From assembly GCA_000004985.1 (NCBI GenBank), contig GG738988.1: 13,986 bases of DNA; one strand, 5' to 3'. Shown one piece after another: positions 5,263 through 10,113 of the stretch. Source of the stretch: Naegleria gruberi (Eukaryota). Under the pieces are notes generated by a model that worked only from the letters and a program-made list of their open reading frames with translations, was not told the DNA's origin and did no database searches. The translations under genes and the position numbers were made by a program. The stretch's first letter is position 1; each line of letters opens with the position of its first letter.

Positions 5263-7449
5263 TCAAAAGTCCTGTGAAAACTTGAAGAATATTTCTTGCC
5301 AAACTTTTTCAGGTAATTTGGAAATTTCGGTGCGATCTCTGAAAAGTTGTTTTCCATTGACCATGCTAAATGTGACAATCTCTCCCATAAATTGCTCAAA
5401 TATTGGATGATCAAGATATTTTTCACATGCTTTAAGCATATTAAAGTAATTATCAATGGATAGATTAAAGTTATTCTTGCAATAATCGATTACATATTGA
5501 ATTTCATGTTTCGTTACCATTTCAAGTAATCCAATAATTTTAACATCATCAATGTCAATTGAAATTCCATAACAATATTTGATCACAATTTCCAATAATT
5601 CTAAATCTTCTGATTCGTCAGGTGTGAATATTCCATCATCACTCAAATCACTGAAACAAGATCCACTGTCAAATAATGCATTAAACAATGTGCTAAATGA
5701 AGTCAATATAGTTTTGTGACAATATAAGTATTTGTCTTGTCCCATTTTGATTTTTACATCACTTGTTTTCTTGTCATTATATAATGATTCAATTATTTGT
5801 GGCTCAGTTTCAATTGTTTCCTCAATATTAATTGCAGTTGGTTGAGTAATGATCATTTTTGAAAAAATGGCAGTAGCATTTCTCATAATTATTGGAAGAG
5901 TTGGTAATAAAGTGTTTCCTTTTTTGGTCCTCATTTGAACAACAGCATATTCAATACAATAGTTATTCAAATGATCAAGAATGTAATTTTGAACATTGAA
6001 TTCCTCATTGCAAATTTTGAGTAAATTTTCAATTGTTTCCCATTTGAAAGTAAGATTTTCTAATGTGAGTGAGTTCACAAATTCACTTGTCAATGATCTT
6101 TTCAAATCAATAAATTCACCATTCTTGAATAAACCCAAAATGAATAAAACATCCAACATTTCTTCTTTGTTAAACTTTACCTTATTCTTATCATATATCA
6201 AAGAATCAATTAATTTTTGAATAATTTCTTGTTGTGATGAACTCATCAAACAAAGTATCTTTTCATTATTCAAAATGCCACAAAATTTTGGTGAAATTTT
6301 GTCAATGAGTGGAATGAATCCATAAATTGGCAATCCAAATAATTCATCTCTTGAATGTTTTTTCAAGTTATGAAATTCTATTTTAGAATACAAGCTACTA
6401 TTTCCAAAATGAGGATACATTCTAATATCAAAAGGTGAATCACCACTGAATCCAGCAGTTCCATTTCCAGCAACTGTTACAATATTTCCATTTTCTAATA
6501 TTTTTCTAATTCTATGATTACCATACTCAGCAATATAAATTTCATTATTTGATGAAACAAAAACACCAGCAGGACTATTCAGTTGTGCATTTGTTGCAAG
6601 ACCATTATCGCCACAAAATCCATAAGGTCCATTTCCAGCAATTGTTACAATATTTCCATTTTCTAATATTTTTCTAATTCTATGATTAATTTGATCAGCA
6701 ATATAAACTTCATTATTTGATGAAACAAAAACACATCTAGGAAAATTCAGTTTTTCTTTTGTTGCAAGACCATTGTCACCACTGAATCCAGCAGTTCCCT
6801 TTCCAGCAATTGTTACAATATTTCCATTTTCTAATATTTTTCTAATTCTATGATTATCATAATCAGCAATATAAATTTCATTATTTGATGAAACAAAAAC
6901 ACCAGCAGGACTATTCAGTTGTGCATTTGTTGCAAGACCATTATCGCCACAAAATCCATAAGGTCCATTTCCAGCAATTGTTACAATATTTCCATTTTCT
7001 AATATTTTTCTAATTCTATGATTAATTTGATCAGCAATATAAACTTCATTATTTGATGAAACAAAAACACATCTAGGAAAATTCAGTTTTTCTTTTGTTG
7101 CAAGACCATTGTCACCACTGAATCCAGCAGTTCCCTTTCCAGCAATTATTACAATATTTCCATTTTCTAATATTTTTCTAATTCTATGATTATCATAATC
7201 AGCAATATAAACTTCATTATTTGATGAAACAAAAACACCAACAGGACCATTCAGTTGTGCTTTTGTTGCAATACCATTATCACCACTGAATCCAGCAGTT
7301 CCATTTCCAGCAATTGTTACAATATTTCCATTTTCTAATATTTTTCTAATTCTATGATTACCATAATCAGCAATATAAACTTCATTATTTGATGAAACAA
7401 AAACACTCTCAGGAGAATACAGTTGCGCACTGGTAGCAAGTGAAGACAT
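5263..7449 (-). CDS. Intronless gene encoding an N-terminal six-bladed NHL-repeat beta-propeller, an alpha-helical linker and a C-terminal BTB/POZ domain with BACK-like extension (728 aa)
   Basis: ATG at 7447..7449 (rev) in aaaaaaATGt context; the ORF-track start at 7488 is an alternative TTG. TGA at 5263..5265 (rev). Six 56-aa repeats carry the NHL signature VFVSSNNEVYIADxxNHRIRKILENGNIVTIAGNGTAGFSGDNGLAT. BTB core DVKIKMGQDKYLYCHKTILTSFSTLFNALFDSG...LELLEIVIKYCYGISIDIDD. One long uninterrupted ORF. Confidence 0.85.
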   Translation of the reverse strand: MSSLATSAQLYSPESVFVSSNNEVYIADYGNHRIRKILENGNIVTIAGNGTAGFSGDNGIATKAQLNGPVGVFVSSNNEVYIADYDNHRIRKILENGNIVIIAGKGTAGFSGDNGLATKEKLNFPRCVFVSSNNEVYIADQINHRIRKILENGNIVTIAGNGPYGFCGDNGLATNAQLNSPAGVFVSSNNEIYIADYDNHRIRKILENGNIVTIAGKGTAGFSGDNGLATKEKLNFPRCVFVSSNNEVYIADQINHRIRKILENGNIVTIAGNGPYGFCGDNGLATNAQLNSPAGVFVSSNNEIYIAEYGNHRIRKILENGNIVTVAGNGTAGFSGDSPFDIRMYPHFGNSSLYSKIEFHNLKKHSRDELFGLPIYGFIPLIDKISPKFCGILNNEKILCLMSSSQQEIIQKLIDSLIYDKNKVKFNKEEMLDVLFILGLFKNGEFIDLKRSLTSEFVNSLTLENLTFKWETIENLLKICNEEFNVQNYILDHLNNYCIEYAVVQMRTKKGNTLLPTLPIIMRNATAIFSKMIITQPTAINIEETIETEPQIIESLYNDKKTSDVKIKMGQDKYLYCHKTILTSFSTLFNALFDSGSCFSDLSDDGIFTPDESEDLELLEIVIKYCYGISIDIDDVKIIGLLEMVTKHEIQYVIDYCKNNFNLSIDNYFNMLKACEKYLDHPIFEQFMGEIVTFSMVNGKQLFRDRTEISKLPEKVWQEIFFKFSQDF
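5431..5760 (-). other. Segment encoding the BTB/POZ domain (residues about 565-674 of the ATG-7449 product)
   Basis: Motif DVKIKMGQDKYLYCHKTILTSFSTLFNALFDSGS, a hydrophobic helix bundle, then LELLEIVIKYCYG, matching the BTB consensus (DVxLxVxxxxFxAHKxVLAxxSxYFxAMF). Recognised by eye only. Confidence 0.65.
6403..7404 (-). repeat. Array of six 168-bp (56-codon) NHL blade repeats inside the CDS
   Basis: Six in-frame units of about 56 aa with a 168-nt DNA periodicity. The last blade is shorter (54 aa) and degenerate at its end. Confidence 0.9.
6531..7216 (-). repeat. Two tandem copies of a 336-bp (two-blade) unit that are about 99% identical at DNA level
   Basis: Offset-336 alignment: 6531..6880 against 6867..7216 differ at only about 2-3 positions (for example caattgttac vs caattattac, aaatttc vs aaacttc). 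Flanking blades are clearly more diverged. Confidence 0.85.
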
Positions 7450-8231
7450 TTTTTTAATTGTAATCTGAACGGAAAAAACAAAATTCAAAGGTTGAAAGGT
7501 GAATTTGACAACTTGTTAATAATACCACTTTAGCAACAGGAATGAAGAACATGGCTGGCAAGAAACTAAACAGAAGCCTGCATATTGTTCATTCACTCCG
7601 ATACTTTACCAGCTTTGATGTAGCGTGATGATAACGAACAATGTTTAATAATGGTAAGGAGTGAGGTTTCAAGGATTTTTTTCCCGCCTTCTTTTTCTTT
7701 TGTTTTTTTCATCACTTCCTTTCGCGAAGTACAAAGCCACGTTGTATTGTGCTGACTGGCTGTTGGTAAAATGTTGTTGATGAATCTTCCTTTCTACATT
7801 ACAAAAGCGTACAGTCCATTACCATCTCTACTAAGGAAATGAATATCCTTAACTAATTTCTTGATGGAAATATTATTGCAAAAGGCATTCATGAAGCATT
7901 GTAATATATACTACCAAGTACCACTGGCTACGAAAAAAATGTTAGTAAAAAAGAAAGTGATTATGTACTAACAATTGAGTTTTGACTTTTTGCTGACGTT
8001 AGATAAAAAAGCCCTTCTTCATTGAGTTTGCAATATCTTACCGTGTTTCAACGCATAGTGTTGATACTTCTTTTCCAGGACATGGTTTCCCATTCCAACC
8101 CAACACTTTTTCTGTACTGGAACATATCTCTCAATTTCACACACACCAAGTTTAGTTTTAATCGTTTCCTACTAGTAGCGAAGAAAAAAAAAAAGTTTAA
8201 AAGTCGAAAGTCAACAACCACTACTTCCAAT
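7450..8231. promoter_or_regulatory. 782-bp divergent intergenic region between the two NHL genes, with putative bidirectional promoter and 5' UTRs
   Basis: Head-to-head gene starts at 7449 (minus) and 8232 (plus). Locally higher GC (7680..7780). An A11 run at 8184..8194. TACTAAC at 7967..7973 with a downstream AG at 8001..8002. Confidence 0.35.
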
Positions 8232-8321
8232 ATGTTATTTCGTTCAACACTTGTTCAATTATTGGTGGTGCTGATGTTATTATCGCTCCAACTAATCGCT
8301 CATTTATTTCTAGTTCATGCA
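8232..8321 (+). other. Predicted signal peptide (30 aa)
   Basis: MLFR plus a 22-residue hydrophobic core, then VHA|QK cleavage-like site. Confidence 0.55.
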
Positions 8322-9138: not shown

Positions 9139-9156
9139 GTGAGATGTACTTCTCTG
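9139..9156 (+). CDS. 18-nt micro-exon encoding (G)EMYFS(D)
   Basis: Flanked by AG| and |GTAAGT. Inclusion gives HPVTGEMYFSDINNNVIRYV, which parallels SPKDEIFICDNNNIRKIV of the preceding blade. Phase is conserved (1 in, 1 out). Confidence 0.6.
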
Positions 9157-9193
9157 GTAAGTTTTATTCGAAACTATTTCTAATATTGTTAAG
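9157..9193 (+). other. Intron 4 (37 nt, GTAAGT...GTTAAG)
   Basis: Consensus donor, TTCTAAT branch-like motif; the acceptor follows an in-frame TAA. Confidence 0.65.
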
Positions 9194-10113
9194 ATATAAA
9201 TAATAATGTGATTCGTTACGTGGCAAGTAATGGAACATTATTGACCTACGTCTCTATTGTTTCTCCTGGAGCGATTGTTTTTGATTCGAATGGTAATTTA
9301 TTTGCTCTCAGCTTGACAAAAGGTCAAGTTATCAAAATTTCTAATGGTGTTAAAACTGTCATTGCCAACAATGCAGGAGTTGTTGGATTCAGCGGAGATG
9401 GAGGTAGTGCTCTCAATGCTCGTTTTACCTATCCATCTGGATTAGCTCTTTATGGAAATAGTTTATATGTTTCAGATTTTGCTGACTATAGAATTAGAAA
9501 AATCGACTTGGTGCTTGGAAATATTAATACAGTTGCAGGAGATGGCTCAATAAGATATCAAGTACTTTCAGGAAATGTTTCGAATATTTCACTTTTGAAT
9601 CCAGTATCTACATTTTATAATTCTAAAAGAGATGAATTGTTGGTAGTGGATAGTTCAGTTGGAGTTGTTTTAAAACTTAATTCAGTTGCTAATTATGGAA
9701 ATTCATTGGTTGACCGTGTGGCTGGAACTGGAATTATCGAATTGGACACTGATGGAAAATTGGGAAATTTAACTTCGCTTTATACTCCCATTTCAGTTAC
9801 TCAATCAGAATCCTCAAGTGATATTTACATTGGTACCACTATTGGAATTAAGAAACTAACCGATTCTAATAAGCTTATTTCATCTTTTGCTGGTTCACAA
9901 GCTTATAGCTCTGGAGATGGATATCCAGCTACTGCAGCTAGATTGTCAAGCCCAGAAGGAATAGCAATCTCAACAAGTGGTGAAGTTTTCATCAGTGATA
10001 AGGGCAGTCACACTATTCGAAAGATTGATTCGAAAGGTGTCATCTCCAATGTAGCAGGAACTGGTTCAGCAGGATATGTAGATGGACCAGCATTGAAGCC
10101 AAGTTAAATGGAC
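9194..10113 (+). CDS. Exon 5 of the secreted NHL gene (about 5 further NHL-like blades). 3' end unresolved: in-frame TAA at 10105..10107, 7 bp before the gap
   Basis: Continuous frame with repeated motifs LYVSDFADYRIRKIDLVLGNINTVAGDGS, DIYIGTTIGIKKL and VFISDKGSHTIRKIDSKGVISNVAGTGSAGYVDGPAL. The stop falls mid-blade, so a final intron or exon probably lies in the gap. Confidence 0.65.

What the first reader, a model, noticed from the sequence alone, without database searches (positions are those of the whole stretch)
5263..10113. Head-to-head pair of paralogous NHL genes: one cytosolic with BTB, one secreted
Two genes share the distinctive blade signature (Y/H)RIRKI...NG.I.T(I/V)AG.G...GDGG.A and sit divergently around a 782-bp shared upstream region. 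One lacks a signal peptide and carries BTB. The other starts with a clear signal peptide, has 8 or more blades and is intron-containing. This is a local NHL family cluster with different compartments and possibly co-regulation.
Basis: partly seen in the sequence, partly recalled or inferred. Interest (0 to 1): 0.5.

Follow-up and report, generated by a model that had tools for sequence, protein, structure and literature searches.

The report
Two unrelated neighbouring NHL genes, Naegleria
Two NHL-repeat genes sit head to head on a small Naegleria gruberi scaffold, but they are only distant relatives that happen to be neighbours, not a locally duplicated pair, so the finding is largely ordinary.

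Summary
The window is a complete 13,986-bp scaffold of Naegleria gruberi.

- **Gene 1** (minus strand, 7449-5263) is the annotated 728-aa predicted protein NAEGRDRAFT_82333. It has six NHL blades, a helical linker, a BTB domain and 3-box-like helices, with no hydrophobic segment.
- **Gene 2** (plus strand, ATG at 8232, 782 bp from gene 1's ATG) has a signal-peptide-like N-terminus, four GT-AG introns and at least nine NHL blades.
- **Gene 2 is incomplete and unannotated.** It has an irregular exon 1/2 junction. Its "stop" at 10105 lies 6 nt from an assembly gap. A one-base shifted frame there reads on as a normal blade, so the true 3' end is unknown.

- Gene 1's blades are 83-100% identical to each other and 72-78% identical to blades of N. 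gruberi NHL-BTB paralogues on at least 11 scaffolds.
- They are 46-50% identical to prokaryotic blades but only 37-39% identical to gene 2's blades.
- The "distinctive signature" is the generic NHL consensus.
- Co-regulation cannot be tested here, and 782 bp is not unusual for this compact genome.

Gene 1 most likely acts as a SPOP-like Cul3 substrate adaptor. Gene 2 is probably a secreted binding protein, or possibly a decaying gene.

The parts
5263..7449 (-). Gene 1 coding sequence (single exon, 728 aa plus stop) = NAEGRDRAFT_82333 / XP_002668650.1 / D2W4U6
   Evidence: ORF. 100% identity and full coverage to P0001. Accessions.
6409..7416 (-). Six NHL blades of gene 1, each 168 nt / 56 aa. 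At the DNA level this is a tandem array.
   Evidence: Pfam NHL, six stretches, 143.7 bits. Tandem Repeats Finder: 168 nt x 6.0 copies at 88% match, and 336 nt x 2.9 copies at 96% match, over 6439-7440. Blade 3 equals blade 5 at 168/168 nt; blade 2 versus blade 4 is 98%.
5854..6321 (-). Family-specific all-helical linker domain of gene 1 (protein residues about 377-532)
5470..5787 (-). BTB/POZ domain of gene 1 (residues 555-660)
5269..5448 (-). C-terminal helices after the BTB domain (3-box / BACK-like), residues about 668-727
7450..8231 (.). 782-bp spacer between the two start codons
   Evidence: Sequence. No tRNA and no Rfam match. No function tested.
8232..8321 (+). Signal-peptide-like N-terminus of gene 2 (30 aa, putative cleavage VHA|QK)
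   Evidence: Hydropathy maximum 2.65 at residue 10. The -3/-1 rule was checked by eye. There is an in-frame upstream ATG near 8082, so the start is not proven.
8232..8469 (+). Gene 2 exon 1 (signal peptide, half blade, first two strands of blade 1)
   Evidence: Translation. Pfam TEN_NHL/NHL weak hits.
8470..8516 (+). Putative 47-nt intron 1 (GTATGG...CAG), or a frameshifted coding remnant
   Evidence: Splicing it keeps the frame. In another frame it reads ISHYFAGAPNYQA, which is blade-like, and 8488-8508 resembles blade 8 DNA at 9885-9905.
8517..8616 (+). Gene 2 exon 2
   Evidence: Blade 2 start NPYGVAINSKGEVFITTT.
8617..8789 (+). Intron 2 (173 nt, GTAAGC...AATAG), closed by a long stem that pairs the 5' splice site (8608-8623) with 8759-8774
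   Evidence: Inverted repeat I5. None expected by chance. RNA fold of 8600-8800 has z = -3.42, with 0 of 200 shuffles as stable.
8790..9094 (+). Gene 2 exon 3 (blades 2-4)
9139..9156 (+). Gene 2 18-nt micro-exon, flanked by introns 9095-9138 (44 nt) and 9157-9193 (37 nt)
   Evidence: The joined product ...AYGIAFHPVTGEMYFSDINNNVIRYV... restores a regular blade.
9194..10113 (+). Gene 2 last visible exon (blades 4-9 and the start of blade 10), running into the gap
   Evidence: Pfam NHL 40.9 bits and TEN_NHL 55.5 bits. Blade-profile hits. Shifted frame at 10092-10113.
10114..12072 (.). Assembly gap (1,959 N) hiding the 3' end of gene 2 and the 3' end of a convergent minus-strand gene

Best explanation
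These are two functionally separate members of the very large NHL-repeat superfamily that lie next to each other in a compact protist genome (Naegleria gruberi).

**Gene 1.** It belongs to an NHL-BTB family so far seen only in N. gruberi. Its parts are a six-bladed NHL propeller, a helical linker, a BTB domain and 3-box-like helices. I infer that it works like SPOP and other BTB substrate adaptors of Cul3-RING ubiquitin ligases. In that model the BTB and 3-box dimerise and dock on Cul3, and the propeller captures a substrate through a few variable loop residues. The family evolves by blade homogenisation and gene conversion between dispersed paralogues.

**Gene 2.** It is an unannotated, strongly diverged NHL gene with at least nine blades, a signal-peptide-like N-terminus and four short introns. 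I infer a secreted or surface binding protein, like other Naegleria and bacterial secreted NHL proteins. Its 3' end is lost in an assembly gap.

**The pair.** The two genes are not recent duplicates of each other. Nothing in the sequence indicates a shared regulatory unit.
For: **Identity of the locus**
- 100% match to P0001, with contig length 13,986.
- accession numbers.

**Gene 1 architecture**
- Pfam NHL x6 plus BTB.
- AlphaFold2 model of residues 338-728, pLDDT 77, showing a helical domain, BTB and C-terminal helices.
- Foldseek top hits are vaccinia A55 BTB-BACK bound to Cul3, SPOP and KEAP1.
- No hydrophobic segment.

**Gene 1 family**
- P0002, P0003, P0004, P0006, P0022, P0060, P0064, P0090, P0241-P0243 and P0391 are 42-88% identical in the linker+BTB module and lie on at least 11 scaffolds.
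- Against P0003, a 160-aa tract is 100% identical and is flanked by 70-90% identity.
- Blades are 77-100% identical at the DNA level.
- Variation among 38 blades is confined to positions 1, 3, 4, 18, 19, 40 and 41.

**Gene 2**
- Gene model, nine blades, hydrophobic N-terminus.
- No database protein above 40% identity, so it is unannotated.
- Frame continuation at the gap edge.

**The two genes are not a pair**
- 30% identity, with ranks 241/241 and 129/241.
- Blade-level identities are 37-39% between gene 1 and gene 2, against 46-50% between gene 1 and prokaryotic blades and 72-78% between gene 1 and NHL-BTB paralogues.
Against: - No expression, splicing or protein data exist for either gene.
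- Cul3 binding and dimerisation are inferred from a predicted fold only.
- Gene 2 may not be functional. Its blades score poorly against the blade profile (2-55 bits against 75-95 for gene 1). The exon 1/2 junction needs either a 47-nt intron that removes blade-like sequence or a frameshift. The last 20 nt need a frame shift.
- Adjacency of two NHL genes is improbable by pure chance if the family has only a few dozen members. An old local duplication therefore cannot be ruled out. Its traces could have been erased by divergence of gene 2 and by gene conversion of gene 1.
- Accession numbering hints that another secreted NHL gene (P0019) lies 3-4 genes from an NHL-BTB fragment (P0243).
Confidence: 0.72

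Rival explanations
1. First reader's view. The two genes arose by a local (inverted) duplication of one NHL gene. One copy then gained BTB and the other gained a signal peptide, and they are co-regulated from a shared bidirectional promoter.
For: - Both genes carry NHL blades and are divergent, 782 bp apart.
- NHL genes appear loosely clustered elsewhere in this genome. P0014 and P0060 have consecutive locus tags, and P0019 and P0243 are 3-4 accession numbers apart (inference from numbering).
- Concerted evolution of gene 1 could have erased the evidence of common origin.
Against: - The two genes are 30% identical, and gene 2 is the most distant of 241 NHL proteins from gene 1.
- Blades do not group together.
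- The shared motif is the superfamily consensus.
- There are no expression data.
Confidence: 0.1
2. Gene 2 is a pseudogene, a decaying relic of a secreted NHL gene, so only one functional gene is present.
For: - It is not annotated and has no close relative.
- Its blades are degenerate: blades 1, 4 and 7 score 2-17 bits.
- There is a frame break between 8469 and 8474 with loss of one strand of blade 1.
- There is a frame break about 20 nt before the gap, followed by TAA.
Against: - Four GT-AG introns, including an 18-nt micro-exon, keep a 525-codon frame open.
- The 299-aa exon has no stop.
- The terminal frame break lies at a contig end, where sequencing errors are common (my inference).
- A 47-nt intron resolves the first break.
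Confidence: 0.25
3. Assembly artefact. This small, gap-rich scaffold is a haplotig or a mis-joined repeat, and both the perfect blade duplication in gene 1 and the juxtaposition of the two genes are unreliable.
For: - The scaffold is only 13,986 bp, and 4,950 of those are N.
- Gene 1 has a 168-nt blade repeated at 100% identity.
- Gene 1 has a 160-aa tract identical to P0003, which lies on a 665-kb scaffold.
Against: - Region 4125-10113 is contiguous sequence without N and spans both genes and the spacer.
- Gene 1 differs from every paralogue outside the identical tract.
Confidence: 0.1

Closest known systems
SPOP / MATH-BTB Cul3 substrate adaptors
   Same: - Same domain order: a substrate-binding domain at the N-terminus, then BTB plus 3-box helices at the C-terminus.
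   Different: - The substrate-binding domain is a six-bladed NHL propeller, not MATH.
- A helical domain of about 155 aa with no known relative lies between the propeller and BTB.
- Cul3 binding was not tested.
KLHL / KBTBD BTB-BACK-Kelch proteins (including vaccinia A55)
   Same: - A BTB domain combined with a six-bladed beta-propeller.
- The best structural matches are the A55 BTB-BACK/Cul3 complex, KBTBD2, KLHL22 and KEAP1.
   Different: - The domain order is reversed, with the propeller first.
- The propeller is NHL rather than Kelch (no Kelch Pfam hit).
- Only a short 3-box-like helical tail is present, not a full BACK domain.
TRIM-NHL E3 ligases (TRIM71, TRIM2/3, Brat)
   Same: An NHL propeller serves as the target-binding module of a ubiquitin-ligase-associated protein. 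Sequence matches have E 1e-5 to 1e-13.
   Different: - No RING, B-box or coiled coil is present.
- Gene 1 would recruit a ligase through BTB instead of being one.
Teneurin and bacterial teneurin-like / secreted NHL proteins, including N. gruberi P0019, P0040 and P0054
   Same: - Gene 2 has an N-terminal signal sequence followed directly by many NHL blades, like P0040 and many bacterial proteins.
- The NHL profile matches the bacterial teneurin-like structure 9ifo at E 7e-114 and teneurins 2-4.
   Different: - Gene 2 is only 31-34% identical to any of them.
- Any EGF, YD-shell or membrane anchor is unknown because the 3' end lies in the gap.
Fungal NLR-associated WD40/ANK/TPR repeats with highly similar, concertedly evolving units (HNWD family; from my own knowledge)
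   Same: - Gene 1's repeat units are 77-100% identical in DNA.
- Variation is restricted to a few positions.
- Differences between units are mostly non-synonymous.
   Different: - The repeat type and partner domain differ.
- pN/pS is only about 1-1.7 on very small counts.
- No link to non-self recognition is known.

Membership tests
NHL-repeat beta-propeller (Pfam PF01436 / PF25021) | Significant match to the NHL repeat profile above the curated cut-off | tested here: met
   Gene 1: 143.7 bits in six stretches. Gene 2 last exon: NHL 40.9 bits and TEN_NHL 55.5 bits. Sequence hits to solved NHL structures: 9ifo E 7e-114, SOQ1, teneurins, NHLRC2, TRIM71.
NHL-repeat beta-propeller (Pfam PF01436 / PF25021) | Six tandem blades of about 40-56 aa forming one propeller | tested here: met
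   Gene 1 has exactly six 56-aa units. Gene 2 has nine blades plus the start of a tenth, so more than one propeller, and it is incomplete. The three-dimensional closure of either propeller was not modelled.
BTB-type Cul3 substrate adaptor | BTB/POZ domain | tested here: met
BTB-type Cul3 substrate adaptor | Helical 3-box / BACK extension after BTB that contributes to Cul3 binding | tested here: inconclusive
   The predicted helices after BTB align with BTB-BACK or BTB+3-box chains over 148-171 residues. This rests on a predicted model with pLDDT 67-89 in that part.
BTB-type Cul3 substrate adaptor | Physical binding to Cul3 and BTB dimerisation | not testable with these tools
   No complex prediction or experiment was available. 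The presence of Cul3 in N. gruberi was not checked here.
TRIM-NHL | RING, B-box and coiled coil N-terminal to the NHL domain | tested here: not met
   No such Pfam domains in gene 1 or gene 2. The NHL domain starts at residue 12 of gene 1.
KLHL / KBTBD | N-terminal BTB-BACK followed by Kelch repeats | tested here: not met
   The order is reversed, and the repeats are NHL rather than Kelch.
Locally duplicated (tandem or inverted) paralogue pair | The two neighbours are each other's closest, or at least close, relatives compared with other family members | tested here: not met
   30% identity. Gene 2 ranks 241/241 for gene 1, and gene 1 ranks 129/241 for gene 2. Blade-level identity is 37-39%, against 72-78% to paralogues elsewhere.
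Secreted protein (classical signal peptide) | Charged n-region, hydrophobic h-region and a cleavage site obeying the -3/-1 rule at the true N-terminus | tested here: inconclusive
   The features are present (R4; L7-V28; VHA|QK; hydropathy 2.65). No predictor was run, the h-region is long (22-24 aa, so a signal anchor is possible), and an in-frame upstream ATG exists near 8082.
Teneurin-like architecture | EGF repeats, YD-shell or a transmembrane anchor accompanying the NHL domain | not testable with these tools
   The 3' part of gene 2 lies in the 1,959-nt gap.

The most novel reading that the evidence does not exclude
The NHL-BTB family that gene 1 belongs to could be a lineage-specific repertoire of ubiquitin-ligase adaptors. 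In this reading the propeller blades are kept nearly identical by concerted evolution, while a handful of loop residues (blade positions 1, 3, 4, 18, 19, 40, 41) diversify. That would make it a variable recognition system, analogous to the hypervariable repeats of fungal NLR-like proteins, possibly aimed at prey or pathogen proteins. The neighbouring secreted NHL gene would be unrelated to this.
Probability: 0.12. Interest if true: 0.55.

Novelty: new variant of a known kind. Interest (0 to 1): 0.2.

Why it matters
- **As posed, little.** A co-regulated pair of paralogues in different compartments is not what the sequence shows. The two genes are distant superfamily relatives, and one of them is incomplete.
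- **NHL-BTB architecture.** A propeller-first arrangement of NHL and BTB, seen here only in N. gruberi, has no literature that I could find. It would add a third propeller type, after Kelch and RCC1, to BTB substrate adaptors.
- **Repeat evolution.** Gene 1's blades are a clean example of repeat homogenisation with variation confined to a few loop positions.
- **Annotation.** There is an unannotated multi-exon gene at 8232-10113+ whose end needs the gap to be closed.

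Tried and rejected
- **Paralogous loci.** I tried to fetch the loci of P0001, P0003, P0040 and P0019 to see whether the NHL-BTB / secreted-NHL pairing recurs. No gene positions are on record for this eukaryote. I fell back on accession numbering, which is only suggestive.
- **Exhaustive profile search.** I intended to search with the linker+BTB module alone. The profile kept the NHL columns (724 positions), so NHL proteins swamped the result. It was useful only as a measure of superfamily size.
- **AlphaFold database fold search.** The library was not available.
- **Literature.** I found no paper on Naegleria NHL or BTB proteins. The genome paper is not held. The oxymonad genome paper gave no N. 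gruberi statistics.
- **RNA genes.** There is no Rfam or tRNA match anywhere in the window. I rejected the idea of a snoRNA in the 173-nt intron, since the intron alone has z = +0.16.
- **Gene 2 N-terminus.** I tested whether it links gene 2 specifically to Naegleria secreted NHL proteins. It does not, because the best matches are bacterial.
- **Diversifying selection among gene 1 blades.** pN/pS is about 1-1.7 on 0-4 synonymous differences per pair, which is too few to claim selection.

Full report
**Source and layout.** The window is a complete small scaffold of the heterolobosean amoeba Naegleria gruberi. The translation of 7449-5263 (minus strand) is 100% identical over its full length to a 728-aa "predicted protein" whose only contig is 13,986 bp long, which is the length of the window. 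Its accessions are EFC35906.1, XP_002668650.1, D2W4U6 and NAEGRDRAFT_82333. Two runs of N (1135-4124 and 10114-12072) are assembly gaps. The finding's end coordinate, 10113, is simply the edge of the second gap.

**Gene 1.**
- It is a single exon with its ATG at 7449, preceded by an A-run.
- Pfam finds six NHL repeats (143.7 bits) and a BTB domain at residues 555-660 (42.4 bits against a cut-off of 20.5).
- The NHL part is six exact 56-aa units.
- In DNA this region is a tandem array: 168 nt x 6 copies at 88% match, and 336 nt x 2.9 copies at 96% match.
- Blade 3 equals blade 5 at 168/168 nt. Blades 2 and 4 differ at 4 nt, all non-synonymous.
- An AlphaFold2 model of residues 338-728 (7-sequence alignment, pLDDT 77) shows a disordered 36-residue connector, a confident all-helical domain, a BTB fold and a helical tail.
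- The helical linker has no specific structural or Pfam relative.
- There is no hydrophobic segment, which fits a cytosolic or nuclear protein.

**Gene 1's real family.**
- At least 13 other N. gruberi gene models share the linker+BTB module at 42-88% identity: P0002, P0003, P0004, P0006, P0014, P0022, P0060, P0064, P0090, P0241-P0243 and P0391. With gene 1 they lie on at least 11 scaffolds.
- A search with the C-terminal 391 residues found only N. gruberi proteins. That search depends on shared short words, so it can miss distant relatives.
- Against P0003, the C-terminal half is a mosaic: 160 residues at 100% identity, flanked by 70-90%. This is the pattern of a gene-conversion tract.
- Across 38 blades of the closest subfamily, nearly all columns are invariant. 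Variation concentrates at positions 1, 3, 4, 18, 19, 40 and 41.
- Among gene 1's own blades, 13 of 16 variable codons change the amino acid. Pairwise pN/pS is about 1-1.7, but on very few synonymous changes.

**Gene 2.**
- The ATG is at 8232, giving exactly 782 bp between the two start codons.
- The N-terminus has R4, an uncharged hydrophobic run L7-V28 and VHA|QK. It has the highest hydropathy in the protein (2.65) and fits the -3/-1 rule.
- No signal-peptide predictor was available. An in-frame ATG near 8082 with no intervening stop means the start is not proven.
- My gene model has exons 8232-8469, 8517-8616, 8790-9094, 9139-9156 and 9194-10113+. The four GT-AG introns are 47, 173, 44 and 37 nt.
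- The 18-nt micro-exon restores a regular blade (...HPVTGEMYFSDINNNVIRYV...).
- A blade profile that I built from the collected NHL proteins detects nine blades. They score only 2-55 bits, against 75-95 for gene 1's blades.

**Irregularities in gene 2.**
- Blade 1 lacks its third strand. The sequence inside the 47-nt "intron" reads in another frame as ISHYFAGAPNYQA, a typical fourth strand plus loop. Its DNA resembles the corresponding part of blade 8. The junction is therefore either a young intron or a frameshift.
- The TAA at 10105-10107 lies 6 nt before the gap. Shifting the frame by one base at 10092 gives ...GYVDGPA-IEAKLNG. This completes the blade against the profile (positions 1-56, 68.9 bits, against positions 1-44, 61.7 bits as read). 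The gene almost certainly runs into the gap, and its C-terminus is unknown.
- No protein in the 5.8-billion-cluster database matches the 299-aa exon at more than 40% identity. The gene is therefore unannotated and has no close relative, even in Naegleria.

**Are the two genes a paralogous pair?**

| Comparison | Result |
|---|---|
| Gene 1 NHL domain vs gene 2 | 30% identity; gene 2 ranks last of 241 collected NHL proteins |
| Gene 2 vs gene 1 | gene 1 ranks 129th of 241 |
| Gene 2's best matches | 31-34% identity, to metagenomic/bacterial proteins and N. gruberi P0040 |
| Gene 1 blades vs each other | 83-100% |
| Gene 1 blades vs NHL-BTB paralogue blades | 72-78% on average |
| Gene 1 blades vs Naegleria secreted NHL blades | 53-55% |
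| Gene 1 blades vs prokaryotic blades | 46-50% |
| Gene 1 blades vs gene 2 blades | 37-39% |
| Gene 2 blades vs any group | 33-47% |

- The "distinctive" motif is the NHL consensus. A profile containing gene 1's NHL region matched 112,580 cluster representatives at E<=0.001. It also matched solved NHL domains from bacterial teneurin-like proteins through to TRIM71.

**Is the adjacency meaningful?**
- I could not retrieve other N. gruberi loci.
- Accession numbering suggests some local clustering of NHL genes. P0014 and P0060 have consecutive locus tags. The secreted P0019 and the NHL-BTB fragment P0243 are 3-4 numbers apart. This is an inference from numbering, not from coordinates.
- An ancient local duplication therefore remains possible. 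Its signal would have been overwritten by gene conversion in gene 1 and by divergence in gene 2.
- Nothing in the 782-bp spacer argues for or against a shared promoter: there is no RNA gene there and no notable repeat.
- From my own knowledge, the genome has about one gene per 2.6 kb, so a spacer of this size is unremarkable.

**Mechanism.**
- *Shown:* the domain content and the predicted folds.
- *Inferred for gene 1:* it acts like SPOP. The BTB and 3-box would dimerise and bind Cul3, and the NHL propeller would bind a substrate through the variable loop residues.
- *Inferred for gene 2:* it is a secreted or surface NHL binding protein, or a decaying copy (about 25% likelihood).
- *Membership:* both genes are NHL-superfamily members. 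Gene 1 is not a TRIM-NHL or a KLHL protein, because their defining domains are absent. It can be called BTB-adaptor-like, but Cul3 binding is untested.

**Verdict.** The interpretation as a paralogous, possibly co-regulated pair is not supported. The locus is ordinary. The mildly novel elements are the uncharacterised NHL-BTB architecture, with its homogenised blades, and an unannotated gene.

Noticed in passing
window 8600-8800 (intron 2 of gene 2, 8617-8789): The 173-nt intron is closed by a stem of about 20 bp. The exon end plus the 5' splice site (8608-8623, CACTACCAGGTAAGCT) pairs with 8759-8774. The RNA fold has z = -3.42, with 0 of 200 shuffles as stable, and no such match is expected by chance. 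The 3' part of the intron looks like an inverted copy of the exon end plus donor site. This could affect splicing, or it could mark an insertion or inverted-duplication origin of the intron.
   Followed up: partly
window 6409-7416 (-): Gene 1's six blades form a DNA tandem array. Blade 3 equals blade 5 at 168/168 nt, and blades 2 and 4 are 98% identical with only non-synonymous differences. Across 38 blades of the subfamily, variation is confined to seven positions.
   Followed up: partly
window 5263-6438 (-) compared with P0003: Identity to paralogue P0003 (on a 665-kb scaffold) is a mosaic: about 160 aa at 100%, flanked by 70-90%. This suggests a recent gene-conversion tract between dispersed family members, or that this small scaffold is partly a haplotig.
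   Followed up: partly
window 8022-8231 (+): The reading frame of gene 2 is open upstream of the chosen ATG, and there is an in-frame ATG near 8082. If that ATG is used, the hydrophobic segment becomes internal and would act as a signal anchor.
   Followed up: no
window 12160-13185 (-): This ORF of at least 342 aa is convergent with gene 2 and runs into the same gap. It has TCAHV and CSGGPV motifs and a sub-threshold Trypsin_2 match (E 0.021, 16 bits against a cut-off of 27.6), so it may be a trypsin-like peptidase.
   Followed up: partly
window 4145-4636 (+) and 708-1134 (-): A 163-aa ORF rich in hydrophobic segments starts right after the first gap. A Ser/Thr/Asn-rich ORF runs into that gap from the other side. 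Neither has a Pfam match.
   Followed up: no
related proteins P0060, P0090, P0014 (N. gruberi): Some NHL-BTB paralogues carry an N-terminal extension with a basic cluster (KLKKAK or PRKK) that gene 1 lacks. This may be a nuclear localisation signal. P0002 and P0014 look like fused or duplicated gene models.
   Followed up: no
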